A stretch of 64,000 bases of DNA from Cyanobacteriota bacterium (GCA_040752795.1 JBFMGH010000264.1:37978-101977); one strand, 5' to 3'; shown: positions 1-13,281, counted from the first letter of the stretch. The notes: a model not told the origin generated them from the letters alone. Made by a program: numbers and translations.

Positions 1-1128
1 CCAAGTAAATTTGGTGAAAAAGTTGTAATGCGTATTCTAGATAAATCAAATATTTCTCTTGGTTTAGATCAGTTGATTACGCATGAACCTACTCTTAAAT
101 CAGTTAGAGAAGTTGTAAACCAGCCGTTCGGTATTATATTTGTAACAGGGCCTACAGGTAGTGGAAAAACAACTACATTATATAGCGCCTTGAGTGAAAG
201 AAATACTCCTGATGTTAATATATCTACTGCTGAAGATCCGATTGAGTATGATTTACCTGGTATTACTCAGTCAGAAGTTAATAAAATAATTGGTTTAGAT
301 TTTGCAAGAATATTAAGAGCATTCTTGCGTCAAGACCCGGATATCATGCTTGTTGGAGAAACAAGGGATAAAGAAACGGCTAAAATTGCTGTTGAAGCTG
401 CTCTTACTGGTCACCTTGTTTTCACTACACTTCACACTAATGATGCACCAGGTGCTATTATGCGTCTGAGTGAAATGGATGTTGAATCTTTCTTAATATC
501 AAGTTCAACCCTTGCAATTCTTGCACAGCGTCTTTTAAGAAGAATATGTTCTAACTGTAAAGAACAATATGAACCAGATGACCATGTATTAAAATACTTA
601 AGTATTGACAAGCTTGGCCATAAGGTTTTTTATAGAGGTAAGGGATGTGATACATGTAGTGACACTGGGTATAAGGGCAGGGTTGGTGTTTATGAATTTA
701 TGCGTATCAATGACCATTTAAGAGACTTGATAGCTAAAGGTTCTAACACTGCAATTATACGGCATGCTGCTCAGGAATCAGGTATGATGACACTGCTAGA
801 GTATAGCTTATGGTTGGCCAAAGAAGGCCATACCACCCTGGATGAAGTTATCAGAGTTACATTTACTGGTGAAGGTCAGGCTTCAATGTGTCCAAATTGT
901 GCTAAGCCTGTTGGAGAAGAATACTATAAATGCCCATTCTGTCAGCATGAGCTTAAACAAACCTGTCCAAGATGTAGTGCACTTATTCAAGAAGGCTGGA
1001 CAAACTGTGCTAAATGTGGCTTGAAAGTTATAAACTTTAATTATGACCAGGATTGTAATCATTGTGGTGGTGAAATATCATTAGAAATGACTGAATGCCC
1101 CTGGTGTTTTTCAAAAATTGAGTCATAA
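1..1128 (+). CDS. pilB: Type IV pilus assembly ATPase PilB/GspE family, C-terminal portion (5' end lies outside the window). It carries an extra ~85-aa C-terminal tail with multiple CxxC zinc-ribbon motifs
   Basis: Frame 1 is open from position 1. Walker A GPTGSGKTTT, the Asp box and His box (TLHTND) of secretion ATPases are present, plus the canonical tetracysteine CSNC...CDTC. After the usual C-terminus (LDEVIRVT) there are about 6 further CxxC pairs. pilT and pilC follow. Confidence 0.85.
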   Translation, partial: PSKFGEKVVMRILDKSNISLGLDQLITHEPTLKSVREVVNQPFGIIFVTGPTGSGKTTTLYSALSERNTPDVNISTAEDPIEYDLPGITQSEVNKIIGLDFARILRAFLRQDPDIMLVGETRDKETAKIAVEAALTGHLVFTTLHTNDAPGAIMRLSEMDVESFLISSSTLAILAQRLLRRICSNCKEQYEPDDHVLKYLSIDKLGHKVFYRGKGCDTCSDTGYKGRVGVYEFMRINDHLRDLIAKGSNTAIIRHAAQESGMMTLLEYSLWLAKEGHTTLDEVIRVTFTGEGQASMCPNCAKPVGEEYYKCPFCQHELKQTCPRCSALIQEGWTNCAKCGLKVINFNYDQDCNHCGGEISLEMTECPWCFSKIES

Positions 1129-1173: not shown

Positions 1174-2256
1174 ATGTTTCTAGAAGAATTGCTACAGTTG
1201 GTATTTGATAGGAATGCGTCAGACTTACATATTTCTATGGGTTTGCCTCCTGTTATTAGAGTTGATGGTAAACTTGTAAGGACAGATTATCCTCCATTAA
1301 CGAAAGAGGATACACAAAGACTTATATTTAGTATGTTAACAAATGAACAGAGAAGAGTATTGGAACAAAACTGGGAATTAGACTGTTCTTACGGAGTATC
1401 GGGACTTGGACGTTTTAGGGTAAACGTATATAAAGATCGTGGTAATTATGCAGCTGCTTTACGTTCTATTTCGACCAATGTTCCTACATTTGATCAATTG
1501 GGATTGCCTGTTATAGTTAAGGAAATTGCTGAAAGGCCTAGAGGCCTAGTGTTGGTAACAGGGCCTACAGGTTCTGGTAAGTCTACAACACTTGCAGCTA
1601 TGGTTGATCACATTAATTCTACAAGAGCAGAGCACATACTAACAATTGAAGACCCTATAGAGTTTGTTCATACATCTAAAAGAAGTGTAGTTCACCAGAG
1701 AGAATTAGGCCAGGATACCAGAAGTTTTAACAATGCTTTAAGAGCAGCTCTCAGGGAAGATCCAGATGTTATACTGGTAGGTGAGATGAGGGACCTTGAA
1801 ACCATTTCTCTTGCACTAACAGCTTCTGAAACAGGTCACTTAGTGTTTGGCACCCTTCACACTTCATCGGCTTCTTCAACTGTTGATCGTATTGTAGACG
1901 TATTTGAGTCTTCTCAGCAGCAACAGATACGTATTCAGTTATCAAACTCTTTAGTAGCTGTATTCAGTCAAACTCTTTTACCCAAGTTATCACCAGATGG
2001 AACTAAAGATGGTCGTATTATGGCTCAAGAAATAATGATTGTTACACCTGCTATATCTAACCTCGTTAGAGAAGGTAAAACAGCACAAATATACTCAGCC
2101 ATACAAACTGGTGGTAATTACAAAATGCAAACTCTTGAAATGGCACTTAGAGAGTTGTATGTTCAAAACTTAATAACTTACGAAGATGCAATGAGCAAAA
2201 CAAGTAGGCCTGACGATCTAAAACGGATGATAGGTTCTGCTATGGCAGGTGTATAG
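1174..2256 (+). CDS. pilT: Twitching motility ATPase PilT (pilus retraction)
   Basis: 360 aa. N-terminus ASDLHIS, Walker A GPTGSGKSTT and a PilT-family His box are present. An AGGAG-like RBS (taggagt) sits upstream. The gene lies between pilB and pilC. Confidence 0.9.
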   Translation: MFLEELLQLVFDRNASDLHISMGLPPVIRVDGKLVRTDYPPLTKEDTQRLIFSMLTNEQRRVLEQNWELDCSYGVSGLGRFRVNVYKDRGNYAAALRSISTNVPTFDQLGLPVIVKEIAERPRGLVLVTGPTGSGKSTTLAAMVDHINSTRAEHILTIEDPIEFVHTSKRSVVHQRELGQDTRSFNNALRAALREDPDVILVGEMRDLETISLALTASETGHLVFGTLHTSSASSTVDRIVDVFESSQQQQIRIQLSNSLVAVFSQTLLPKLSPDGTKDGRIMAQEIMIVTPAISNLVREGKTAQIYSAIQTGGNYKMQTLEMALRELYVQNLITYEDAMSKTSRPDDLKRMIGSAMAGV

Positions 2257-2282: not shown

Positions 2283-3521
2283 ATGCCTCAATTTAAATAT
2301 AAAGCCAGGGATGAAAATGGTAAACTAGTTGAAAATGTTGCGATATCAGATAGTATAACTGATTTAAGACAACAACTAAAAGATAAAGGGTTATATCTTG
2401 TTGAAGCTGAAGACTCTGAAAAAGGTGGATCATCAAGTTTACTTAACCTTGATCTTAATGAAATGCTTGGCAAATATGCAAAAGTTAAACTAAAAGATAT
2501 GGTTATCTTTAATAGACAGTTTTCTGCACTTATTAATGCTGGTGTTGCTATGATGAGAGCTTTAACTCTGATGGCTGATCAGTCTGAAAACCCTAAAATG
2601 CGGATGATACTTAACAAGGTTAAAAGTGATGTTGAGCAGGGTGTATCATTATCTGACGCTTTTGCAAGACACCCGGAAACTTTTGATCAGTTATATGTCA
2701 GTATGATAAGGGCTGGTGAAACTGGCGGTGTTCTTGATGAAGTACTTAATAGAATAGCACAATTTATGGAAAATAGAGCACGGTTGATTGGACAGGTTAA
2801 ATCAGCTATGGCTTACCCTGCTATTGTTACTATTCTGGCTCTCATTATATTTTTTGTTATGTTGACTTTTGTTTTGCCTAAATTTTCTCAATTATTTGGT
2901 CGTTTAGGTGGTGAATTACCTGCGTATACACAGTTTCTTATTAATATAAGTGAATTTTTAAGGTCTGCGTGGTTAATTGTTATAATTCTAGCTGTAATAG
3001 GTCTGGTATTCTTGTTTAAGCAAATCTATGCAACTGATACAGGCAGGTATTATATTGATAAGATATCTTTGAAAGTGCCTGTTTTTGGAGATTTATTTAA
3101 GAAAGTAGCTGTTGCTAGATTTACCAGAACCTTTGGTACGTTGGTACGTAGTGGCGTTCCTATTCTTAGTTCGCTTGAAATTGTAGAAGAATCTGCTGGC
3201 AATGCTGTTTTAGCTAGAGTAGTTGCTGAAGTTAGAGATGAAGTAAGCCAGGGTGGTAGAATTAGTGATCCTCTTGATAGATCACCTCTTTTCCCTCCGA
3301 TGGTTGTTTCTATGATTGCTATAGGTGAAGAAACCGGTGAACTTGATGCGATGCTTTCTAAAATCGCAGATTTTTACGACATGGAGGTTGAAGGAGCCGT
3401 CAATGCTTTGACTTCTTTGCTTGAACCTCTTATGATTGTTGTTTTGGGAGGTATGGTTGGTGCTGTTATTGTGGGTATGTACCTGCCATTGTTCAAAATA
3501 TTTGATAAGATCGGTGCTTAG
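2283..3521 (+). CDS. pilC: Type IV pilus inner-membrane platform protein PilC (GspF family)
   Basis: 412 aa with duplicated GspF-like cytoplasmic domains and 3 TM segments, typical PilC architecture. It follows pilT directly. Confidence 0.9.
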   Translation: MPQFKYKARDENGKLVENVAISDSITDLRQQLKDKGLYLVEAEDSEKGGSSSLLNLDLNEMLGKYAKVKLKDMVIFNRQFSALINAGVAMMRALTLMADQSENPKMRMILNKVKSDVEQGVSLSDAFARHPETFDQLYVSMIRAGETGGVLDEVLNRIAQFMENRARLIGQVKSAMAYPAIVTILALIIFFVMLTFVLPKFSQLFGRLGGELPAYTQFLINISEFLRSAWLIVIILAVIGLVFLFKQIYATDTGRYYIDKISLKVPVFGDLFKKVAVARFTRTFGTLVRSGVPILSSLEIVEESAGNAVLARVVAEVRDEVSQGGRISDPLDRSPLFPPMVVSMIAIGEETGELDAMLSKIADFYDMEVEGAVNALTSLLEPLMIVVLGGMVGAVIVGMYLPLFKIFDKIGA

Positions 3522-3532
3522 AGGAGAAATTG

Positions 3533-3811
3533 ATGACTTTACAAACTTGTGGTCTCAGTAGACGTCAGCTGGAGACTATGTATAAAACTACTTATGAAAA
3601 AATGAAATTTGAAATAATTAGAGAGTATGGTAATGCACTCATATTACAGGGTAGGGCAAGAGATGTTGGCTCTCTTAGTGATGTTGAAAGAGATATGGAA
3701 GCTATGTGTGATGCTTATGCCAAATCTTTAATGAATATAACATCAAGAGTTATTGAAGCCAATAATAAAAAACTCTTAGAGGATTTTGAATCTATGAAAA
3801 AATCTCCTTAA
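3533..3811 (+). CDS. Small hypothetical protein (92 aa) co-transcribed at the end of the pil operon
   Basis: The ORF has a GAGGAG RBS 6 nt upstream of its ATG and lies 9 bp after the pilC stop. It is followed by a terminator hairpin. I see no recognisable motif. Confidence 0.4.
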   Translation: MTLQTCGLSRRQLETMYKTTYEKMKFEIIREYGNALILQGRARDVGSLSDVERDMEAMCDAYAKSLMNITSRVIEANNKKLLEDFESMKKSP

Positions 3812-3844: not shown

Positions 3845-5392
3845 TTAATGTTTAAAATGTCTTATTCCTGTAAATACCATAGATAGATTGTATTTATCAG
3901 CTGTAGCAATAACTTCTTTATCTTTAATACTGCCACCTGGTTGTATTATTGAACTTATTTTTGCTTGTACAGCGGCCTGAATATTGTCAATTGCAGGAAT
4001 AAAACCATCACTTGCTACTACAGCATCCTTTGCTTCATCACATGCTTGTCTTAGTGCTATTTCCATAGAACCTATACGGCTTGTCTGGCCACAGCCAATG
4101 CCCAGTGTTTGACCATTTTTTGCTACAACTATTGCATTAGAGTTGATGTGTTTTACTACTTTCCAGGCAAAAAGTAAATCGTCAAGCTCTGCTTCAGAAG
4201 GCTTTTTCTTTGTTACTATGTTAAAGTCTTTTTGGGTGATCATTTTATTGTCAGCATTTTGAATTAAAACCCCTCCGGCAATTTGTTTTATTATATGGTT
4301 ACTTATGAGATTTACTTCTTCAGGTACTTCGATTAGCCTTAGATTTTTCTTTTTATTAAATATCAGACGTGCTTCATCTGAAAACTTGTTAGCTACTATT
4401 ACTTCTAAAAAGACACTAGTCATAATATCAGCTAAATCAGCGTCTATTAAACCATTAATACCTACTATGCCACCAAAAGAACTTATAGGATCAGCACTAA
4501 GGGCTTTTTTGAATGCTTCAAGATGTGTTTTACCTATGGCTACTCCGCATGGATTACAGTGTTTTATTATACATGCTGCAGGTATGTTGTTAAATTCATC
4601 AATTACTTTAAGCGCTGATGTTACATCGATTAAATTATTGTAAGATAATTCTTTCCCTTGAAGAACTTCGAATGCCAATTCATCTTTAGGTGCATCAGAA
4701 TAATTGTATAATCCTGCTGATTGATGAGGGTTCTCTCCATATCTTAGATCATCCACTTTTGTTAGTTCAATCTTAAATGATTCAGGAGTATATGCTAGAT
4801 CAAATCTATTTAATAATGTTTGATAGACGATATTATCATAAGTATGTGTGTGCTCAAATGCTTTAGCAGCAAGTTTTTTACGAAATTTCATGCTTGTTTT
4901 TCCGTCGTTTTTGTCCATATCTTCTAATAATTCTTCATAGTCTTCATTAGAACATACTACTGTAACGTGATGATAATTTTTAGCAGCGCTTCTTATTAGG
5001 GCTGCTCCGCCTATATCAATATTTTCAATTAGTCTGTCAAGAGTTGAATTTTTAATGCTGGCTACTTCTCTAAATGGATATAGATTAACAATTACAAGAT
5101 CAATTGGTTGGATATTATGTTCTTTTAGTGTTTTCATATGTTCTTTATTGCTTCTATCTGCAAGAATAGCACCGTGTATTTTAGGGTGAAGTGTTTTTAC
5201 CCTGCCATCAAGCATTTCAGGGTAATCTGTAAGGGTGCTTATCTTTTCACAATTTATCCCAGCAGATTTTAATGTTTCTCTGCTTCCTCCTGTAGATATT
5301 ATTTCGAAATTAAAATTATTTATTAGACTTTTTGCTAATTCAACAATTCCATCTTTGTTGAAAACACTTATTAATGCTCTTTTTTTGTTCAT
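3845..5392 (-). CDS. purH: Bifunctional AICAR transformylase / IMP cyclohydrolase
   Basis: 515 aa. The N-terminal MGS-like domain (ALISVFNKDGIVELAKSL, ISTGGS) and the C-terminal AICARFT domain are the standard length and motifs for PurH. Confidence 0.93.
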   Translation of the reverse strand: MNKKRALISVFNKDGIVELAKSLINNFNFEIISTGGSRETLKSAGINCEKISTLTDYPEMLDGRVKTLHPKIHGAILADRSNKEHMKTLKEHNIQPIDLVIVNLYPFREVASIKNSTLDRLIENIDIGGAALIRSAAKNYHHVTVVCSNEDYEELLEDMDKNDGKTSMKFRKKLAAKAFEHTHTYDNIVYQTLLNRFDLAYTPESFKIELTKVDDLRYGENPHQSAGLYNYSDAPKDELAFEVLQGKELSYNNLIDVTSALKVIDEFNNIPAACIIKHCNPCGVAIGKTHLEAFKKALSADPISSFGGIVGINGLIDADLADIMTSVFLEVIVANKFSDEARLIFNKKKNLRLIEVPEEVNLISNHIIKQIAGGVLIQNADNKMITQKDFNIVTKKKPSEAELDDLLFAWKVVKHINSNAIVVAKNGQTLGIGCGQTSRIGSMEIALRQACDEAKDAVVASDGFIPAIDNIQAAVQAKISSIIQPGGSIKDKEVIATADKYNLSMVFTGIRHFKH

Positions 5393-5620: not shown

Positions 5621-6601
5621 GTGATTCCTGTACTAGTAAAAGAATTAGAAGGACTTGAGCAGCTTCCGTTTGATTTATACAATAAAAATGGCCGCTTGAT
5701 TTTTCGTTCAGGTGAAGTTCTGTCAGCTGGTAAAGTGTTGCAGCTTAGGTATATTGATGTTTTTAGAAAAACTGATGATGAAATACCGGTAGAGAAAAAA
5801 CCTGTTGAAGCTGTTCCTCCAAGTATAGATTGGGAAACTAAAGAAGAAACAAGACCTACCAAGGCGATTCTTTTTGATTCTCCACGAATTCATGAAATTA
5901 ATCCTGATTCTATTATTGACCCTCAATTACAGGTATCAATTAAAACTTCTGTGCATACACTTATTGATACTATGACAAGTAAAGAAATTCCAGACCCTGT
6001 TGTGTATAATGCAGCTAGAGATGAAATAGTTAACGAAGTGTTGGGTAGTGTTGATAAAGTTCATCACTTAAATCAGCTGAGGGTTTTTGATGATTATGAT
6101 TATTCTCACGCAGTTAACGTTTCTGTTTTAGCTGTTATGTTAGGATATAAATTGGGAATGACTGGTACTGGTTTGCGAACTCTCGCACTGGGATCCTTAT
6201 TGCATGATATTGGTAAAACGAGAATACCGAAGCAGATTTTGCATAAACCCGGTGCTCTGACTCCTAAAGAATATGAAATAGTTAAACTTCATGCCCCCTT
6301 AGGTTACAAAATAATAAAAGATGAATTAGGCTTGACTGAAGATATAGCAAGAATAGCATTGGAACATCAAGAAAAATTTGATGGAACTGGCTATCCTAAA
6401 GGGCTTTCTGGAGATTCTATTGATTCTATGGCCCATGTTGTTAGTGTTTGTGACGTTTATGATGCTTTGGTCTCAACAAAGGTATATTCAAACCCAAAAC
6501 CATCTCAAGATGCTTTGAAAATTATGTTAAACTATGGTAGTAGCTGGTTTAATCCATCAGTTTTATATAAATTTACTCATATGACTTCATTTAAGGAATA
6601 G
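5621..6601 (+). CDS. HD-GYP domain c-di-GMP phosphodiesterase, paralog 1 (GTG start)
   Basis: HD motif LLHDIGKTRIP and GYP motif DGTGYPKGL are present. The N-terminal ~50 aa domain is shared with the downstream paralog. Confidence 0.85.
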   Translation: MIPVLVKELEGLEQLPFDLYNKNGRLIFRSGEVLSAGKVLQLRYIDVFRKTDDEIPVEKKPVEAVPPSIDWETKEETRPTKAILFDSPRIHEINPDSIIDPQLQVSIKTSVHTLIDTMTSKEIPDPVVYNAARDEIVNEVLGSVDKVHHLNQLRVFDDYDYSHAVNVSVLAVMLGYKLGMTGTGLRTLALGSLLHDIGKTRIPKQILHKPGALTPKEYEIVKLHAPLGYKIIKDELGLTEDIARIALEHQEKFDGTGYPKGLSGDSIDSMAHVVSVCDVYDALVSTKVYSNPKPSQDALKIMLNYGSSWFNPSVLYKFTHMTSFKE

Positions 6602-6623: not shown

Positions 6624-7586
6624 TTGATCAGGGTTAATGTAAAAGAGCTGGAAGGAAAAAAGGTTTTAGAATATGACCTTTATACGGATAAAGGAAAACT
6701 TATCTGTCCTAGAGGTACACAATTAACTCCTGGTAAAATTCTTCAACTTAGCTATACAAAATTATTTAGACAGATTGAAGAGAATGTTCCTCAGCCTGAA
6801 CCAGAAAAAATTGAGCCTAAACCTGTTCATGTTGCTGTTGTAAAAGAACCAAGAAGCACTGAAATACTTGAAGAACCAGCTGACTGGGATTCTGTAATTG
6901 ATAAAAATGTTAAGGTGACTGTTCTGAAGTCTACCAGAGAATTTCTCTCTGATATAGAAGAAGGGAAATCTCCTGATGTAGCTATGTGTGAGGTCGTTAG
7001 AGATAAGCTGGTAGCAGAAGTAGCTGAAAAAGTTGAACAGGTCGATTATCTGGGTCAATTGAGGATGTTTGATGAGTATACTTATTCTCATAATGTTAAT
7101 GTTTCAGCATTAAGTGTTGCATTGGCGATGAAAATAGGAATGAAACAGAATGATATAAAAGATCTAGCATTAGCAACACTACTTCACGATATTGGTAAGA
7201 TGCGTATTCCTAAAGAAGTTCTTAATAAACCAGGTCGGCTTACTGATAAAGAATTTCAGGTAATGAAGTTACATGCTCAGCTTGGATTCCAGGTTATTAA
7301 AGAAGAGCTAAAATTGCCTTATAAGATCTCAAGAGTGGCATTAGAGCATCAGGAAAGATTTTCTGGTTCAGGGTATCCCAGGAATCTTAAAGGTGATGAA
7401 ATAGGTTTATTTTCTCAAATATGCGCTATAGCAGATGTATATGATGCTATATCGTCAAAACGTGTTTATAAGCCTGCCAGAACTTCTAAAGAAACTATTA
7501 AGATTATGTTAAACGAAGGTTCTGCTTCTTTTAATCCTTCTCTGTTATACAAGTTCGTTCATATGTGTAATTATTCTGACGAATAA
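6624..7586 (+). CDS. HD-GYP domain c-di-GMP phosphodiesterase, paralog 2 (TTG start)
   Basis: HD motif LLHDIGKMRIP and GYP motif SGSGYPRNL are present. It is about 50% identical to the upstream paralog, a tandem duplication. Confidence 0.85.
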   Translation: MIRVNVKELEGKKVLEYDLYTDKGKLICPRGTQLTPGKILQLSYTKLFRQIEENVPQPEPEKIEPKPVHVAVVKEPRSTEILEEPADWDSVIDKNVKVTVLKSTREFLSDIEEGKSPDVAMCEVVRDKLVAEVAEKVEQVDYLGQLRMFDEYTYSHNVNVSALSVALAMKIGMKQNDIKDLALATLLHDIGKMRIPKEVLNKPGRLTDKEFQVMKLHAQLGFQVIKEELKLPYKISRVALEHQERFSGSGYPRNLKGDEIGLFSQICAIADVYDAISSKRVYKPARTSKETIKIMLNEGSASFNPSLLYKFVHMCNYSDE

Positions 7587-7707: not shown

Positions 7708-10700
7708 TTGAGTTCCGTAAATTATTTCGGAATCAGTAATTCCATCAATGCATGGGGGATTTATAGTCTATTTAAAACAAATAGTCTATCTATTAACAAT
7801 GATTTACAAAAATTAGAAACTTCTATGGCCCTTACTCTTGAAAATGAAGACAGGTATGTTTCTTCACAATCTCCGGTTTTAATGGGGCTTTATAGGGCAA
7901 TTCCTTCAGAGAGGGCAGAGCAACTTCTAAGCGAGGGTTATAGTGATGTTTCAGCTATTGTTAAAGCTGTTTCTGAGTATATGACCTCGATCGAAGATAC
8001 TGCTGTGTACTCTGAACCAACGGCTCAAAATGATAGAACTTTTAATATAAATGATCCTGCACCGAATACCTCTACCTATGATCTTGTTAATTTATACAAT
8101 AATACAGTTAATATTAATACTAATGCTGGTACTGATACAGTAAATCTTGGAGGAACGTATAATACTATTCAGGTCGATGTGGGTTTAGGTGATGATACAG
8201 TAAATGTTGATACTTCCAGTGCAAATGAGTTTACTATTGTCGGTGGCCCCGGTACCAATACAGTCAATATGTCTGGAAATGTAACGGACTATGCATTCCA
8301 GGATAACGGCGACAACACACTTACCATGACGGACACATACTCTGGGGCCACTGTTGTTATTGATACAAACATTGAACTGGTTAATTTTGCTGATGGATCA
8401 ACAATGACTTTTGATGGAACTGATATTACCATCAATTCTGCTGCAACTGGTGAGCAAATGTTAATTGATACAACCAATTCTTCTTATGTCCTAGATATGA
8501 ACAGTGGTGATGATACACTTGTTGTATCTGGTGTTGGTAATACAGTAGATGTTAATGTGAGTGCTGGTAATGATTTTGTTGTTGTTGATGGAACTAACAA
8601 TAATGTAAATATTCAGTTTGAAGATAAACAAGATACTCTCTATGTGGCAACAGGAAATAATAATATTGTTAATGTTGATGGAGGTGACTACACAGATTCT
8701 CTTATCCTTCAGGGTGACGTACTTGATTGGACTTTAGTAGGTAATACATATACACACAATACTACGGGAACAGCTGTAACTGTTAATGACATAGAAAATG
8801 TATATTTTGGACAACTTGTAGATGACCCGGCTGGAAGCTCTTCTAATCTGGATTATACAGCTCTAAATAACAGTGGTAATGTTGTTTATTTAAATGATGG
8901 TAATGACACTGTTGCTCTGGGTGGCACAAATAACTACATTCAACTTGATATGGGTAGTGGAACAAATACTGTTACCATCGATGACACAAATTATAACAAC
9001 TTTGTTCTCGCTGGAGGTAGCGGCACAGATACTATTAGCTTCATTGGTAACGTTGGAGATTATACTTTTCAGACAAATGACGATGGCACACTTACCATAA
9101 AAAATGCCAGTTCATTTGCTACAACCACCATCGACTCTAATATAGAAAACATTCTATTTGCAGATAATTCTTCTTTAGCTTTTAACGGAACAGACTTCTC
9201 TATTAAAACAACTATTAATGCTGATACGGTAAATATTACTGGTTCTAACAATACTGTTTTTATTGATACATACAATGGTGCTGATTCTGTTAGTATTACT
9301 GGAACAAATAACACTGTTAAACTTAATTTAGCTAACGATGACGATAGTGTTTATGTTGGAATTGGTGAAAACAATGATATTACAATAGATGGTGCTCATG
9401 GGGTTGATACACTTACTTTGCAGGGAATGGCTGCTGATTGGACACTTACAGGAACCCTGCCTGGTCAAACATACTATGAGAACATTTATTCTGGAACTAA
9501 AGTTACAATATTAACCAGCATAGATAATGTGCAGTTTGATAATGGTCTTGTAGTTTACGATACTCCCGGTATGGATAGCTTTATTAATGCTCTTGGTTAT
9601 AATGATACCAGTATTAATATAAACACTAATGATGGAGATGATACAGTATCTTTAGATGGAACAAATAATAATGTTACTGTAAACTTTCTGTCTGGAAACG
9701 ATTATGTCCATATTGACGATAGTACGAATAGTACATATTTTATTAATGGAGGCTCTGGAGAGGATACTGTCGTATTAAATGGTGTTATGGCTGATTATAA
9801 TATTGTTAATAATCCTGATGATACCATGACTATTACAAATACTATATCAGGTGCTGCTGTAACACTGGATCCATATCTTGTTGAAAATATAGTTCTTATG
9901 GATGGACCTATTCAGGGTAGAGTTGTTTTACGTGGAACTCCTCTAGATGACACATTCGATTTAACAGCATTCAATAATGAAACTATACAGGTTGATTTGA
10001 TGTCTGGAAATGATTTGTTAACTGTTGGTGGTACAAATAATGATATTGATTTAAATCTTGGTGCAGGTGATGATATTGTTAATATTGATGACTCTAACAG
10101 TAATATTTTCAATGTTAGTGGAGGCCTTGGTAATGATATAATAAATATGGCAGGAGTTTTAGGTGACTATACATTTACCGATAATGGAGATAGTACATTT
10201 ACACTTACTAATGTTATATCTGGTGCAGCTACTACTGTAGATTCGACCGTTGAAACAATAAATCTTGGAGATGGATCTGTATTATCTTATGATGGAAGCA
10301 CAATTACTATAACAGATGCTCCTGGTAGATCGAATACTTTTGATATGACAACTTACAGTAATTCGAGTTTTATTATCAACGCAAATGACCAGGATGATAT
10401 GGTTATTATTGGTGGTCTTAATAATGATATTACTGCTAACTTGAATTCTGGTAATAACACAGTTAATATAGATGACTCAAATATAGGAACGTATACTGTT
10501 AATGGAGGAACCGGAACTGATGTAATTAATATGGCTGGAAATCTATCTGATTACCAGTTTAATGATAATGGAGATAGTACATTTACACTTACTAATGTTA
10601 TATCAGGTGCTACAACTACAATTAATTCGACTGTAGAAACAATTAATTTGAATGATGGAACTGTTATTGGTTATGATGGTTCAACAATAACTATTACGGA

Positions 10701-13281
10701 TGGTCTGGGTAATTCCAGCAATATTGATCTATCTACTAGTAATAATACATCCTTTATTATAAATGCTGGAGATAGCGATGATGTGGTTAATCTTGCAGGA
10801 ACTAATAATAATGCAATAGTAAATCTTTCTTCTGGTACAAACACTTTAAATATTGATGATTCAAACAATAATACATTTGTGGTAAATGGGGGAGTGGGGA
10901 TTGATACAGCTAGTCTCTCCGGGGTTTTAGCTGATTATACGTTTACTGATAATGGTGATAATACGTTAACGGTTACTAATACAGGGTCAGGTGCTACAAC
11001 TACAATTGATATTGCTGTAGAAAATATTAATTTGTCTGATGGCTCTATTGTTAACTTTGATGGTTCATCTATAACAATTACTGATGCTCCGGGTAATGCT
11101 AGTAATTTTGATCTAACTGGTGGTGTTAATACTGTATTTACCATTAATGCTAATGATAATAATGATACAGTTGATCTTGGTGGTTTAAATAATGATGTTA
11201 CTGTTAATTTAAATTCTGGTAATAATACTGTTAATGTTGATGATACAAATAATAATACTTTTGTTATAAGTGGTGGTAGTGGTACTGATGTTGTTAATAT
11301 GTCTGGTAATGTTTCTGATTATACTTTTATAGATAATGGAGATAACACACTTACTTTAACAAATAATATTTCTGGAGCTACTACAACTATTGATACATCT
11401 ATTGAAACAGTAACATTAGGGGATAATGTTAATGTTAATTTTGATGGTTCTACTATTACTCTAACTGATGCTCTTGGATCTTCTACTACATTTGATCTAA
11501 CAGCGCAAAACAATTCTAATATGATTATTAATACAGGTAATATGGATGATATAGTTAATCTTGGTGGCTCTAATAATGATATGACAGTCAACTTAATCTC
11601 TGGCAATAATAATGTAAATATTTCTGACCAGAATTTTAATACGTTTATTGTCAATGGTGGTACGGCTACAGATACGGTTAACTTTACTGCGGGTCTTGAT
11701 TATACATTAACAGATAATGGTGATACTACTTATACAGTTACTAATAATTTGTCAGGTGCTAATACAACATTTGGTACTTCAATTGAAACTATTTCCTTTA
11801 CGGATATACCTGGATCCTCTTCTACTTTTTCAGTTAATGATAGTTTTGCGGCCAGTATTATTGTAAATGCAGGTAATAATAACGATACTCTGAATCTGGG
11901 AGGTGCTGGAAATGATATTACGGCTAACTTAAATAGTGGTACAAACGTTGTAAATGTTGATGATACAGTTTCTGCTACATATAATATAAATGGTGGTAGC
12001 GGTACTGATTCTATTAATTTGACTGGTATTTTATCTGATTATTCATTCCAGGATAATGGAGATAGTACACTTACAATAACAAATACACTTTCTGGTGCAA
12101 CAGTAACAGTTGATGCTAATATTGAAACAATTAACCTGGCTGATGGTAAAACTTTAAGCTATGACGGTACTGATCTAACTATTAATGATACACCTGGAAG
12201 TTCTTCTGCATTTGATATAACAACTTTTACAAATACTTCATTTATTATTAATACAGATAATCAGAATGATATTGTTGACCTTGGTGGAAATAATAACACG
12301 GCGGTAGTAAATCTGGCTTCTGGTGTAAAGACTGTAAACATTGATGATTCTAACAATAATACATTTGTAGTTAATGGTGGTGTAGGAACAGATACAATTA
12401 ATTTATTTGGAAACATTTCTGACTATTCATTCCAGGATAACGGAGATAGTACACTTACAATAACAAACACACTTTCTGGTGCAACAGTAACAGTTGATGC
12501 TAATATTGAAACAATTAACCTGGCAGATGGTAAAACCTTAAATTATGATGGTACAGATTTAACAATAAATGATTTACCTGGAAGTGCTACAAACTTTGAT
12601 ATAACATCTAATGCAAATACCTCTTTTATTATTAATGCTGGTGATCAAAATGATATAGTTGATCTTGGTGGAAATAATAACACGGCGGTAGTAAATCTGA
12701 CTTCTGGTGTAAACACTGTAAACATTGATGATTCTAACAGCAATACATTTGTAGTTAATGGTGGCGTGGGAACAGATACAATTAATATGAGTGCTAATTT
12801 CTCTGATTATATATTGATGGATAATCTTGATGGAACTCTAACCATTACTAACAATATTTCAGGAGCTACTACCACAATTGATTCTTCTATAGAAACGGTT
12901 AATTTTAATGACTCTTATTCAATATCTTATGATGGATCTGATATTACTTTAAGTGGTTTTACAGCTGGTAATGATAACCTTTCTATTGATGGAATTGATA
13001 CAACATATAATTTTGTAACTACAGATGCAGGTATGGATAATATAACTATAGATGGTATTAATAATAATGTTAATATAGATTTAGGAACCGAAGACGATTC
13101 GGTATACGTAGCAGTAGGCAATAACAATGTTATAAATATTGATGGTAGCGGCCAGACAGATACACTTACATTAGAAGGTGCAGCACTAGATTGGAACCTG
13201 GTAGGTAGTACATATACTCATACTGTTTCTGGTACATCAGTTACTATTTCAAATCTTGAAAATGTCCTCTTTACAGCCTGA
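7708..13281 (+). CDS. Giant (1857 aa) Asn/Thr/Asp/Gly-rich, cysteine-free repeat protein with RTX-like calcium-binding nonapeptides. Probable secreted or surface adhesin-like beta-roll/beta-helix protein
   Basis: A single ORF with about 11 tandem 128-aa modules, each carrying GGxGxDx[IV]x (for example NGGVGTDTINL, NGGSGTDSINL, SGGLGNDIINM). There are three related cap modules (GDVLDWTLVG..IENVYF; GMAADWTLTG; GAALDWNLVG..LENVLF), the last at the extreme C-terminus. There is no N-terminal signal peptide. The start codon is uncertain (TTG 7708 immediately after a stop; the first ATG lies about 40 codons downstream). Confidence 0.75.
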   Translation: MSSVNYFGISNSINAWGIYSLFKTNSLSINNDLQKLETSMALTLENEDRYVSSQSPVLMGLYRAIPSERAEQLLSEGYSDVSAIVKAVSEYMTSIEDTAVYSEPTAQNDRTFNINDPAPNTSTYDLVNLYNNTVNINTNAGTDTVNLGGTYNTIQVDVGLGDDTVNVDTSSANEFTIVGGPGTNTVNMSGNVTDYAFQDNGDNTLTMTDTYSGATVVIDTNIELVNFADGSTMTFDGTDITINSAATGEQMLIDTTNSSYVLDMNSGDDTLVVSGVGNTVDVNVSAGNDFVVVDGTNNNVNIQFEDKQDTLYVATGNNNIVNVDGGDYTDSLILQGDVLDWTLVGNTYTHNTTGTAVTVNDIENVYFGQLVDDPAGSSSNLDYTALNNSGNVVYLNDGNDTVALGGTNNYIQLDMGSGTNTVTIDDTNYNNFVLAGGSGTDTISFIGNVGDYTFQTNDDGTLTIKNASSFATTTIDSNIENILFADNSSLAFNGTDFSIKTTINADTVNITGSNNTVFIDTYNGADSVSITGTNNTVKLNLANDDDSVYVGIGENNDITIDGAHGVDTLTLQGMAADWTLTGTLPGQTYYENIYSGTKVTILTSIDNVQFDNGLVVYDTPGMDSFINALGYNDTSININTNDGDDTVSLDGTNNNVTVNFLSGNDYVHIDDSTNSTYFINGGSGEDTVVLNGVMADYNIVNNPDDTMTITNTISGAAVTLDPYLVENIVLMDGPIQGRVVLRGTPLDDTFDLTAFNNETIQVDLMSGNDLLTVGGTNNDIDLNLGAGDDIVNIDDSNSNIFNVSGGLGNDIINMAGVLGDYTFTDNGDSTFTLTNVISGAATTVDSTVETINLGDGSVLSYDGSTITITDAPGRSNTFDMTTYSNSSFIINANDQDDMVIIGGLNNDITANLNSGNNTVNIDDSNIGTYTVNGGTGTDVINMAGNLSDYQFNDNGDSTFTLTNVISGATTTINSTVETINLNDGTVIGYDGSTITITDGLGNSSNIDLSTSNNTSFIINAGDSDDVVNLAGTNNNAIVNLSSGTNTLNIDDSNNNTFVVNGGVGIDTASLSGVLADYTFTDNGDNTLTVTNTGSGATTTIDIAVENINLSDGSIVNFDGSSITITDAPGNASNFDLTGGVNTVFTINANDNNDTVDLGGLNNDVTVNLNSGNNTVNVDDTNNNTFVISGGSGTDVVNMSGNVSDYTFIDNGDNTLTLTNNISGATTTIDTSIETVTLGDNVNVNFDGSTITLTDALGSSTTFDLTAQNNSNMIINTGNMDDIVNLGGSNNDMTVNLISGNNNVNISDQNFNTFIVNGGTATDTVNFTAGLDYTLTDNGDTTYTVTNNLSGANTTFGTSIETISFTDIPGSSSTFSVNDSFAASIIVNAGNNNDTLNLGGAGNDITANLNSGTNVVNVDDTVSATYNINGGSGTDSINLTGILSDYSFQDNGDSTLTITNTLSGATVTVDANIETINLADGKTLSYDGTDLTINDTPGSSSAFDITTFTNTSFIINTDNQNDIVDLGGNNNTAVVNLASGVKTVNIDDSNNNTFVVNGGVGTDTINLFGNISDYSFQDNGDSTLTITNTLSGATVTVDANIETINLADGKTLNYDGTDLTINDLPGSATNFDITSNANTSFIINAGDQNDIVDLGGNNNTAVVNLTSGVNTVNIDDSNSNTFVVNGGVGTDTINMSANFSDYILMDNLDGTLTITNNISGATTTIDSSIETVNFNDSYSISYDGSDITLSGFTAGNDNLSIDGIDTTYNFVTTDAGMDNITIDGINNNVNIDLGTEDDSVYVAVGNNNVINIDGSGQTDTLTLEGAALDWNLVGSTYTHTVSGTSVTISNLENVLFTA
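8080..13260 (+). repeat. Intragenic tandem repeat array with a 384-bp period (about 11-13 copies). Some copies are nearly identical at the DNA level
   Basis: For example, 12041-12190 and 12425-12574 are almost identical, and 10181-10250 matches 10565-10634, both offset by exactly 384 bp. The period equals the 128-aa protein module. Confidence 0.8.

What the first reader, a model, noticed from the sequence alone, without database searches (positions are those of the whole stretch)
1..1128. PilB assembly ATPase with an extra C-terminal triple zinc-ribbon tail
Canonical PilB/GspE ends soon after the tetracysteine motif and the C2 domain. This protein continues for about 85 aa with six additional CxxC pairs (CPNC, CPFC, CPRC, CAKC, CNHC, CPWC), which predicts three tandem zinc ribbons. 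Such a tail could be a protein-protein interaction or c-di-GMP/nucleic-acid sensing module. Two HD-GYP enzymes sit a few kb downstream, so a regulatory link to pilus extension is plausible.
Basis: partly seen in the sequence, partly recalled or inferred. Interest (0 to 1): 0.55.

Follow-up and report, generated by a model that had tools for sequence, protein, structure and literature searches.

The report
PilB pilus motor with triple zinc-ribbon tail
The pilus-extension motor protein PilB of this non-photosynthetic cyanobacterial relative really does carry three extra zinc-ribbon modules, but the tail is normal for its lineage, and its last ribbon matches the zinc finger that cyanobacterial PilB1 uses to bind the protein Hfq.

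Summary
Window 1-1128 (+) is the 3' part of a pilB gene cut by the window edge. PilB/GspE models and every solved PilB/PilF/GspE structure end near residue 287-299 of the 375 translated. The remaining ~88 residues hold 12 cysteines in six CxxC pairs.

The tail is not an artefact, and it is not peculiar to this gene. About 120 homologues from Melainabacteria (including Obscuribacterales) and Sericytochromatia carry the same three ribbons, and about 48 carry only the first two. Ribbons 1+2 are a Pfam DZR double zinc ribbon, a generic module also found on unrelated proteins.

Ribbon 3 is the counterpart of the single C-terminal zinc finger of photosynthetic-cyanobacterial PilB1 (120 of 120 sequences examined). 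Reciprocal HMM tests gave about 35 bits for ribbon 3 against 12-14 for ribbons 1 and 2. The literature reports that this finger docks Hfq in Synechocystis.

The most likely function is therefore a zinc-stabilised protein-docking tail on the motor. This is inferred, not shown.

The proposed c-di-GMP or nucleic-acid sensing role and the link to the HD-GYP genes have no support. That adjacency is absent from all five related loci examined, and a close relative lacks the tail entirely.

Verdict: a new variant of a known kind, of moderate interest.

The parts
1..1128 (+). 3' part (375 codons plus stop) of pilB, the type IV pilus extension ATPase. The 5' end lies outside the window.
   Evidence: ORF and translation. 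Pfam T2SSE 1-285, E 8e-95. TIGR02538 PilB E 6e-114 and TIGR02533 GspE E 3e-117, both ending at residue 287. PDB PilB 6olj/5tsg E ~1e-89.
148..435 (+). ATPase core motifs: Walker A GPTGSGKT (148-171), Asp box (226-246), Walker B (334-369), His box (406-435).
   Evidence: Regex on the translation.
547..657 (+). Canonical PilB/GspE tetracysteine zinc motif (CSNC ... CDTC; C183, C186, C216, C219).
   Evidence: These columns are invariant across 52 homologues.
862..1125 (+). Lineage-specific C-terminal extension (residues 288-375), beyond the end of all canonical PilB models and solved structures.
889..1017 (+). Double zinc ribbon (Pfam DZR). Ribbon 1 is CPNC-x10-CPFC (889-942). Ribbon 2 is CPRC-x7-W-x2-CAKC (964-1017).
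   Evidence: PF12773 29.7 bits against GA 27.3. Unique pattern match in the window. Spacing invariant in 21-41 aligned tails.
1054..1107 (+). Ribbon 3 (CNHC-x7-M-x2-CPWC), the positional and sequence counterpart of the single C-terminal zinc finger of photosynthetic-cyanobacterial PilB1. It is diverged in this clade (W to M, and no TPR motif after the last Cys).
   Evidence: The cyanobacterial-finger HMM aligns best to ribbon 3 in 119 of 134 three-ribbon tails. In the window it scores 12.0 bits against 7.9 and 7.8. The reciprocal test gives median 34.6 bits against 14.2 and 11.7.
1174..2256 (+). pilT (retraction ATPase), immediately downstream.
   Evidence: T2SSE E 1e-48, 360 aa. The same order is found in relatives.
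2283..3521 (+). pilC (platform protein, two T2SSF domains).
   Evidence: PF00482 E 2e-69, two stretches.

Best explanation
The gene is the PilB1-type pilus extension ATPase of a low-GC (33%) member of the non-photosynthetic cyanobacterial classes (Melainabacteria/Vampirovibrionia). It heads a pilB-pilT-pilC operon. After the normal ATPase and its canonical tetracysteine zinc site, the protein continues with three independently folding Cys4 zinc ribbons, arranged like beads on a string.

Ribbons 1 and 2 form a generic Pfam 'double zinc ribbon' (DZR). Ribbon 3 is homologous to the single C-terminal zinc finger that all sampled photosynthetic cyanobacterial PilB1 proteins carry. In Synechocystis that finger is reported to dock Hfq at the pilus base, as part of the PilB-Hfq-EbsA complex needed for pilus assembly.

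The most likely role of the tail is therefore a zinc-stabilised docking platform displayed by the PilB hexamer. It would recruit one or more small accessory proteins, either an Hfq-like partner or lineage-specific ones, that control pilus extension.

Shown here: the domain composition, its conservation, the homology of ribbon 3, and the distribution across lineages. Inferred: zinc binding, protein docking, and the identity of the partner.
For: - **Extra length and DZR hit:**
- **Cysteine conservation:** all 12 tail Cys are invariant in 41 diverse three-ribbon tails.
- **Lineage distribution:** 17 three-ribbon and 45 two-ribbon tails among relatives of the window protein, and 102 three-ribbon tails among Sericytochromatia/Obscuribacterales relatives. 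Source names are Melainabacteria, Gastranaerophilaceae, Obscuribacterales and Sericytochromatia.
- **Photosynthetic cyanobacteria:** 120 of 120 PilB1 proteins end in one ribbon...LTCRVCxAxLKxEWLDCPYCTTPRFxD.
- **Ribbon 3 correspondence:** an HMM of that finger picks ribbon 3 in 119 of 134 tails, at 20-36 bits against 6-16 in the examples listed. The reciprocal test gives 34.6 against 14.2 and 11.7 bits. Both share a post-ribbon 'x-T-[PA]-R' motif.
- **Literature:** PMC4390875 section 3.2 describes the cyanobacterial PilB1 C-terminal tetracysteine 'zinc finger', absent from other PilBs and from PilB2, which binds Hfq. PMC12288463 describes the PilB-Hfq-EbsA complex.
- **Structure models:** AF2 predicts three hairpin knuckles at pLDDT 60-78, and the tail-only model has pTM 0.38, meaning no fixed arrangement between ribbons.
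- **Weak fold hint:** single ribbons overlay the protein-binding NZF/RanBP2 zinc fingers at 0.7-0.8 A over 24 columns, but this is not statistically significant.
Against: - **Diverged ribbon 3:** the window's own ribbon 3 differs from the cyanobacterial consensus (M for W, no TPR motif). It scores only 12 bits, so partner specificity may differ.
- **No Hfq found:** no Hfq-like ORF occurs in the 64-kb window or in about 90 kb of related loci. This says little about whole genomes.
- **Tail-less relative:** a close relative (P0015, 81% identical ATPase domain) has a genuine stop right after the C2 domain and no downstream ribbon ORF. The tail is therefore dispensable in some lineages.
- **Generic DZR:** the DZR module is also attached to unrelated membrane proteins, so its presence alone predicts no particular partner.
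- **No direct evidence:** no experiment or structure exists for any PilB tail.
Confidence: 0.6

Rival explanations
1. One reading: the tail is a sensor for c-di-GMP or nucleic acid that couples pilus extension to the two HD-GYP phosphodiesterases encoded about 4.5 kb downstream.
For: Two tandem HD-GYP-type proteins are really present at 5621-6601 and 6624-7586 (HD_5 E 5e-30 and 3e-31, with motifs HQEKFDGTGYP and HQERFSGSGYP). Zinc ribbons can in general bind nucleic acids (established knowledge).
Against: The HD-GYP genes are separated from pilBTC by a gene on the opposite strand at 3845-5392, with PurH-like length and sequence (not profiled here). None of five related pilBTC loci has HD-GYP neighbours. 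The tail hits only zinc-ribbon families, and no PilZ, MshEN or other c-di-GMP receptor family. In PilB/MshE proteins the known c-di-GMP site is the N-terminal MshEN domain (PF05157). That domain is present in full-length homologues but lies outside the window.
Confidence: 0.06
2. The tail has no partner. It would be a structural or regulatory element of PilB itself: stabilising or gating the hexamer, or acting as a zinc- or thiol-redox-sensitive switch on motor activity.
For: There are 12 extra cysteines per subunit, 72 per hexamer, all strictly conserved. The canonical tetracysteine site of GspE/PilB is itself structural (established knowledge). An Acaryochloris plasmid copy of PilB1 lies beside Fur-family repressors and the zinc chaperone ZigA, which hints at a zinc connection.
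Against: AF2 gives no confident packing of the tail against the ATPase: a low-confidence linker at 290-293 and tail-only pTM 0.38. The homologous cyanobacterial finger is reported to work by binding Hfq. A tail-less close relative exists.
Confidence: 0.17
3. The DZR part (ribbons 1+2) is a localisation module that targets PilB to the membrane or cell pole, as suggested by its frequent attachment to membrane proteins elsewhere.
For: The same DZR spacing is found at the C-terminus of about 50 small proteins of Chloroflexota and Actinomycetota. Those inspected have hydrophobic membrane-like segments and a coiled coil. Other membrane proteins carry it too.
Against: In those proteins the membrane anchor is supplied by the hydrophobic segments, not by the DZR. 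No lipid-binding feature is evident. PilB localisation in known systems depends on PilM/PilC contacts (established knowledge).
Confidence: 0.1
4. Artefact: a frameshift or assembly error has fused a separate small zinc-ribbon ORF to pilB.
For: None found. One relative (L122) does have pilB split into two ORFs, but the split is in the N-terminal half, not at the tail.
Against: The frame is continuous. The same fused architecture recurs in well over 150 proteins from independent assemblies and sources. No stand-alone tail gene lies next to the tail-less pilB.
Confidence: 0.01

Closest known systems
Cyanobacterial PilB1 (e.g. Synechocystis sp. PCC 6803 Slr0063) with its C-terminal tetracysteine 'zinc finger' that binds Hfq (Schuergers et al. 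2014; Schuergers & Wilde 2015, PMC4390875)
   Same: Same phylum-level lineage and the same pilB-pilT-pilC operon. Both have an extension after the C2 domain that starts at the same ...E-V-x-R-V-T-F-(S/T)... junction. The terminal ribbon has the same CxxC-x7-(W)-x2-CPxC spacing. In Obscuribacterales and Sericytochromatia the x-T-[PA]-R motif after the last Cys is also shared.
   Different: Photosynthetic cyanobacteria have one ribbon preceded by a basic linker (LEAELKAKRKTSL). The window protein has a DZR (two extra ribbons, about 45 aa) in place of that linker. Its ribbon 3 is diverged (M for W, CPWC, no TPR). Hfq binding is untested, and no hfq gene was seen in the DNA available.
Pfam DZR, double zinc ribbon (PF12773)
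   Same: Residues 297-340 match the full model (positions 1-45 of 45) above the gathering score. The spacing CxxC-x10-CPxC-x7-CxxC-x7-W-x2-CxxC is identical to DZR copies in other phyla.
   Different: DZR is a family of unknown function found in many architectures. Here it sits at the C-terminus of a secretion ATPase and is followed by a third ribbon of different ancestry.
Canonical PilB/GspE/PilF assembly ATPases with solved structures (Geobacter PilB 5tsg/6olj, Thermus PilF 5it5/6f8l, Vibrio GspE 1p9r/4kss)
   Same: ATPase core, Walker and His boxes, and the internal tetracysteine zinc motif.
   Different: All of these end at or within about 12 residues of query position 287. None has a C-terminal ribbon tail.
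PilB-DZR proteins of other phyla (Acidobacteriota, Nitrospirota, UBP9), some with an added receiver domain
   Same: A two-ribbon DZR fused directly after the PilB C2 domain (L025, L034, L041, L044, L087, L093, and L118/L020/P0226 with REC).
   Different: About 40-45% identity over full-length comparisons with related cyanobacterial-lineage PilBs. Most lack ribbon 3. It was not resolved whether the fusion is shared by descent, transferred or convergent.

Membership tests
PilB/GspE type II/IV secretion ATPase (PF00437; TIGR02538) | Walker A, Asp box, Walker B and His box of the T2SSE ATPase core | tested here: met
   GPTGSGKT (res 50), TAEDPIE (76), DPDIMLVGETRD (112), TGHLVFTTLH (136). PF00437 E 8e-95.
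PilB/GspE type II/IV secretion ATPase (PF00437; TIGR02538) | Internal tetracysteine zinc motif in the C-terminal domain | tested here: met
   C183/C186 and C216/C219, invariant in 52 homologues.
PilB/GspE type II/IV secretion ATPase (PF00437; TIGR02538) | Full-length equivalog score and N-terminal GSPII_E_N/MshEN domain | tested here: inconclusive
   TIGR02538 scores 381.7 bits against a cut-off of 675.65, because the gene is cut by the window edge. Full-length homologues at 72-78% identity carry PF05157.
PilB/GspE type II/IV secretion ATPase (PF00437; TIGR02538) | Operon context pilB-pilT-pilC | tested here: met
   pilT at 1174-2256 and pilC at 2283-3521. The same order occurs in five related loci.
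Cyanobacterial PilB1 subfamily (C-terminal Hfq-binding zinc finger) | C-terminal extension beyond the C2 domain that ends in an invariant Cys4 ribbon | tested here: met
   Ribbon 3, C352/355/366/369, invariant in 41 tails.
Cyanobacterial PilB1 subfamily (C-terminal Hfq-binding zinc finger) | Sequence match of the terminal ribbon to the cyanobacterial consensus CRVC-x7-W-x2-CPYC-TTPRF | tested here: inconclusive
   Clear for the lineage: 119 of 134 tails, with a reciprocal median of 34.6 bits. Weak for the window itself: 12.0 bits against 7.9 and 7.8 for the other ribbons, with W to M and no TPR.
Cyanobacterial PilB1 subfamily (C-terminal Hfq-binding zinc finger) | Physical interaction with Hfq, and presence of cyanobacterial-type hfq and ebsA in the genome | not testable with these tools
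   No Hfq-like ORF in the window or in about 90 kb of related loci.
Pfam DZR double zinc ribbon (PF12773) | Score above the gathering threshold over the whole model, with two consecutive Cys4 ribbons | tested here: met
   29.7 bits against 27.3, model positions 1-45 of 45, residues 297-340.
Pfam DZR double zinc ribbon (PF12773) | Zinc binding | not testable with these tools
   Inferred only from the invariant Cys4 geometry and the AF2 hairpins.
   Pfam and NCBIfam scans of the whole fragment and of the tail alone return only zinc-ribbon families.

The most novel reading that the evidence does not exclude
The three-ribbon tail could be the ancestral state of PilB1 in the phylum Cyanobacteriota. 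On this reading the terminal ribbon was already a docking site for Hfq, or a precursor partner, before oxygenic cyanobacteria diverged. The DZR (ribbons 1+2) would recruit a second, still unknown regulator of pilus extension that photosynthetic cyanobacteria later replaced, for example with EbsA and a basic linker. That would make Melainabacteria and Sericytochromatia a window onto the origin of the cyanobacteria-specific PilB interaction hub.
Probability: 0.2. Interest if true: 0.55.

Novelty: new variant of a known kind. Interest (0 to 1): 0.35.

Why it matters
Cyanobacterial type IV pili depend on a poorly understood complex of PilB1, Hfq and EbsA. The only known handle for this complex on PilB1 is a small C-terminal zinc finger. 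This work shows that non-photosynthetic relatives carry a homologous finger preceded by a double zinc ribbon. Two-ribbon, three-ribbon and tail-less forms coexist among close relatives. That gives a natural deletion and insertion series for asking what the finger binds and how accessory proteins became attached to the pilus motor. It also warns annotators that PilB proteins of 630-700 aa in these lineages are not fusion artefacts. In itself the finding is a domain-architecture variant, not a new system.

Tried and rejected
- **Tail profile against 1.84 billion representative proteins.** It gave 6864 hits, dominated by generic multi-ribbon proteins. This showed the DZR is generic. It was useful only for pulling out about 10 divergent PilB-plus-tail representatives, most of which could not be assigned to a lineage.
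- **The search for related loci with a divergent tail alignment.** It failed because no conserved 7-10 column stretch existed. I replaced it with a hand-made degenerate DNA pattern.
- **Pattern scan of GTDB genomes.** Only 11 loci were PilB tails, and no photosynthetic cyanobacterium appeared. This is expected in hindsight, since they lack ribbons 1+2.
- **P0179 ('Stenomitos sp.') taken as a photosynthetic cyanobacterial PilB1.** Rejected. Its relatives are Sericytochromatia and Obscuribacterales, and several MAG names look unreliable.
- **PDB sequence search and Foldseek on the tail.** Nothing significant was found.
- **Hfq search in the window and related loci.** Negative, but uninformative about whole genomes.
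- **The 93-aa ORF after pilC (3530-3811) as an analogue of cyanobacterial Slr0845.** It is not conserved in relatives and has only a weak sub-threshold PilN hit.
- **A split tail gene next to the tail-less PilB of a close relative.** None was found.
- **MshEN c-di-GMP motif in N-termini of homologues.** Regex only, with one hit among the eight homologues checked. This is inconclusive, and the region lies outside the window.
- **Primary paper Schuergers et al. 2014.** It is not held in the library, so the Hfq-binding claim rests on two reviews by the same group.

Full report
**1. What is in the sequence**

Window 1-1128 (+) is a single open frame of 375 codons. It enters from the 5' edge of the window and stops at 1126-1128.

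Residues 1-285 match Pfam T2SSE (E 8e-95). The NCBIfam equivalogs for PilB (TIGR02538, E 6e-114) and GspE (TIGR02533, E 3e-117) both run to their own last positions at residue 287. The bit scores are below the full-length cut-offs only because the N-terminal half of the gene lies outside the window.

The ATPase motifs and the canonical internal tetracysteine site (C183, C186, C216, C219) are present. pilT (1174-2256) and pilC (2283-3521) follow directly.

Every solved PilB, PilF and GspE chain aligns only up to residue 286-299. The last 88 residues (nt 862-1125) are therefore extra. All 16 cysteines of the fragment are in CxxC pairs.

Pfam DZR (double zinc ribbon, PF12773) matches residues 297-340 over its whole length at 29.7 bits, above its gathering score of 27.3.

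**2. It is not an artefact, and it is normal for the lineage**

A search with the fragment returned PilB proteins named by their sources as Melainabacteria, Gastranaerophilaceae, Obscuribacterales and Sericytochromatia. The window is 33% G+C.

| Search (query) | 3 ribbons (six CxxC) | 2 ribbons (four CxxC) | 1 ribbon | No tail |
|---|---|---|---|---|
| (window fragment), best 120 | 17 (tails 86-110 aa) | 45 (56-81 aa) | 1 | 56 |
| (divergent three-ribbon PilB P0179) | 102 | 3 | 0 | 5 |
| (Acaryochloris PilB1) | 0 | 0 | 120 of 120 | 0 |

The 56 tail-less hits are mostly deltaproteobacterial-type PilBs that stop 3-4 residues after the junction. One further hit had three CxxC, and four hits lacked the anchor motif.

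In an alignment of 41 diverse three-ribbon tails all 12 cysteines are invariant, as are P38 and W59. The spacing CxxC-x10-CPxC-x7-CxxC-x7-W-x2-CxxC has no indels, even in proteins only about 30% identical. The same continuous ORF in so many independent assemblies excludes a frameshift fusion.

**3. The DZR part is a generic module**

A profile of the tail found 6864 proteins among 1.84 billion representatives. Most are multi-ribbon proteins unrelated to PilB.

A degenerate DNA pattern for the ribbon 1+2 spacing matches once in the window, with 0 matches in shuffles. Only 11 of these matches are PilB C-termini, from Acidobacteriota, Nitrospirota, UBP9 and the Melainabacteria/Sericytochromatia group.

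About 50 matches are small Chloroflexota and Actinomycetota proteins. Those inspected have hydrophobic membrane-like segments, a coiled coil and then the DZR. Others are further membrane proteins. None of the non-PilB loci has a secretion ATPase within its ≤8 kb stretch. The DZR by itself therefore predicts no particular function.

**4. Ribbon 3 is the cyanobacterial PilB1 zinc finger**

[quoted passage not shown] They state that it is absent from other PilBs and from PilB2. They also state that in Synechocystis it binds Hfq, and that PilB, Hfq and EbsA form a complex essential for pilus assembly (PMC4390875 section 3.2; PMC12288463). The primary paper is not held in the library.

I reached genuine photosynthetic sequences through a PilB copy on Acaryochloris marina plasmid pREB6. 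With it as query, 120 of 120 cyanobacterial PilB1 proteins end in ...VERVTFTDSGLEAELKAKRKTSLTCRVCxAxLKxEWLDCPYCTTPRFxD. Source names include Acaryochloris, Thermosynechococcaceae, Lyngbya, Leptolyngbyaceae and Oculatella. This is one ribbon with the spacing CxxC-x7-W-x2-CPYC.

- An HMM of that ribbon aligns best to ribbon 3 in 119 of 134 three-ribbon tails. In the examples listed it scores 20-36 bits, against 6-16 for ribbons 1 and 2.
- Reciprocally, an HMM of ribbon 3 scores a median 34.6 bits on the cyanobacterial tails. Ribbon 1 scores 14.2 and ribbon 2 scores 11.7.
- The motif after the last cysteine is shared: QTPR, QATR, MTPR or LTAR against TTPRF or MTPRF.

In architectural terms, photosynthetic cyanobacteria have junction, basic linker, finger. 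The non-photosynthetic classes have junction, DZR, short linker (12 residues in 125 proteins), finger. Alternatively they have junction and DZR only.

The window's own ribbon 3 belongs to a diverged subgroup. It has M instead of W (24 proteins share this), CPWC, and no TPR motif. It scores only 12.0 bits, against 7.9 and 7.8 for its other ribbons.

**5. Structure**

AF2 on the 375-residue fragment with 52 homologues gives a confident ATPase (mean pLDDT 83.3). There is a low-confidence hinge at residues 290-293, then a tail at pLDDT 60-78 made of short beta hairpins.

The tail alone with 41 sequences gives pLDDT 71.8 but pTM 0.38. The individual knuckles are defined, but there is no fixed arrangement between ribbons.

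Foldseek against the PDB finds nothing significant; the best E-value is 0.025. Single ribbons overlay NZF/RanBP2-type protein-binding zinc fingers at 0.7-0.8 A over 24 columns, but those E-values are about 1. A sequence profile search of the PDB is equally empty.

**6. Context and the HD-GYP idea**

The two downstream genes (5621-6601 and 6624-7586) are HD-GYP-type proteins, with HD_5 E-values of 5e-30 and 3e-31 and recognisable GYP motifs. They lie beyond an unconserved 93-aa ORF and a 515-aa gene on the opposite strand at 3845-5392. That gene has PurH-like length and sequence but was not profiled here.

In five related loci the pilB-pilT-pilC triad is conserved. The downstream genes differ (pilins, a response regulator, CbiM, or a flavoprotein, GGDEF and flagellin), and no HD-GYP gene is adjacent.

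If these PilBs sense c-di-GMP at all, the known site is the N-terminal MshEN domain (PF05157). Full-length homologues carry it, but it lies outside the window. A quick motif check hit one of the eight homologues examined and was inconclusive.

**7. Limits on the functional inference**

No Hfq-like ORF occurs in the window or in about 90 kb of related loci. The Hfq queries were verified against PDB 3HFO and 3HFN. Whole genomes could not be searched.

A close relative (P0015, 81% identical over the ATPase domain) has a real stop right after ...VTFSGM. It is followed by 160 nt of AT-rich spacer and then pilT, with no ribbon ORF. The tail can therefore be lost.

**8. Conclusion**

Their 'unusual for PilB' holds only against canonical PilBs. 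Within the phylum Cyanobacteriota a C-terminal zinc-ribbon tail is the rule. Its terminal ribbon is a known protein-docking finger.

What appears to be undescribed is the two- and three-ribbon form in the non-photosynthetic classes, and the correspondence of ribbon 3 to the Hfq-binding finger. Literature searches found nothing on this.

The most likely function is a zinc-stabilised docking platform for accessory protein(s) of the extension motor. I put the confidence for the whole statement at about 0.6. It is higher for the homology and lower for the partner. This is a new variant of a known kind, of moderate interest.

Noticed in passing
window 7708-13281 (+): A very large ORF (1857 aa, TTG start) directly after the two HD-GYP genes has no Pfam family at E <= 1e-5.
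   Followed up: partly
L121 (Acaryochloris marina MBIC11017 plasmid pREB6) 706-6375: A plasmid-borne PilB1 paralogue (675 aa, with the cyanobacterial zinc finger) lies next to three Fur-family or other transcriptional repressors and the zinc metallochaperone GTPase ZigA. Similar copies occur on other Acaryochloris plasmids. This may link a zinc-rich pilus motor to zinc homeostasis.
   Followed up: no
L001-L120 (e.g. L005, L006, L012, L015, L024): About 50 Chloroflexota and Actinomycetota species encode small (about 160-260 aa) proteins. Those inspected have hydrophobic membrane-like segments (motif W-x-Y/F-x-D-A-R-R-R), a conserved coiled-coil stretch (ERELE.. or YERSLEEEALLQ) and a C-terminal DZR with exactly the same spacing as the PilB tail. 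None is near a secretion ATPase gene.
   Followed up: partly
L118 (Acidobacteria), L020 (UBP9), protein P0226: These PilB proteins have the two-ribbon DZR followed by a response-regulator receiver-like region, so the motor ATPase may carry its own phospho-acceptor. The receiver is judged from sequence by eye; no domain scan was run.
   Followed up: no
L126 6001-7900: A closely related Melainabacteria PilB (81% identical ATPase domain) has lost the whole tail. It has a clean stop after VTFSGM and no downstream ribbon ORF. GGDEF and flagellin genes lie a few kb downstream of its pilBTC genes.
   Followed up: yes
L122 9111-11113: In one relative (GCA_036704275.1) pilB is called as two adjacent ORFs of 295 and 370 aa. 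This is a probable frameshift or assembly error in the N-terminal half, and the tail is intact.
   Followed up: no
L123 5495-7210; L124/L125 8556-9995; L126 4348-5985: A 479-571 aa protein with no Pfam hit is encoded immediately upstream of pilB in four related loci, ending 6-16 nt before pilB in three of them. Homology between the four was not checked. The window starts too late to show whether it has one too.
   Followed up: no
L081; proteins P0045, P0179, P0318, P0329: Several public MAG labels look wrong. A contig labelled 'uncultured Gammaproteobacteria' carries the closest relative of this Melainabacteria pilB found in the GTDB genome scan. PilBs labelled Stenomitos, Planktothrix or Trichormus group with Sericytochromatia and Obscuribacterales rather than with photosynthetic cyanobacterial PilB1.
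   Followed up: partly
window 3530-3811 (+): A 93-aa ORF (TTG start) right after pilC has only a weak sub-threshold PilN hit (E 0.0095). It has no counterpart in related loci, so it may not be a gene.
   Followed up: yes
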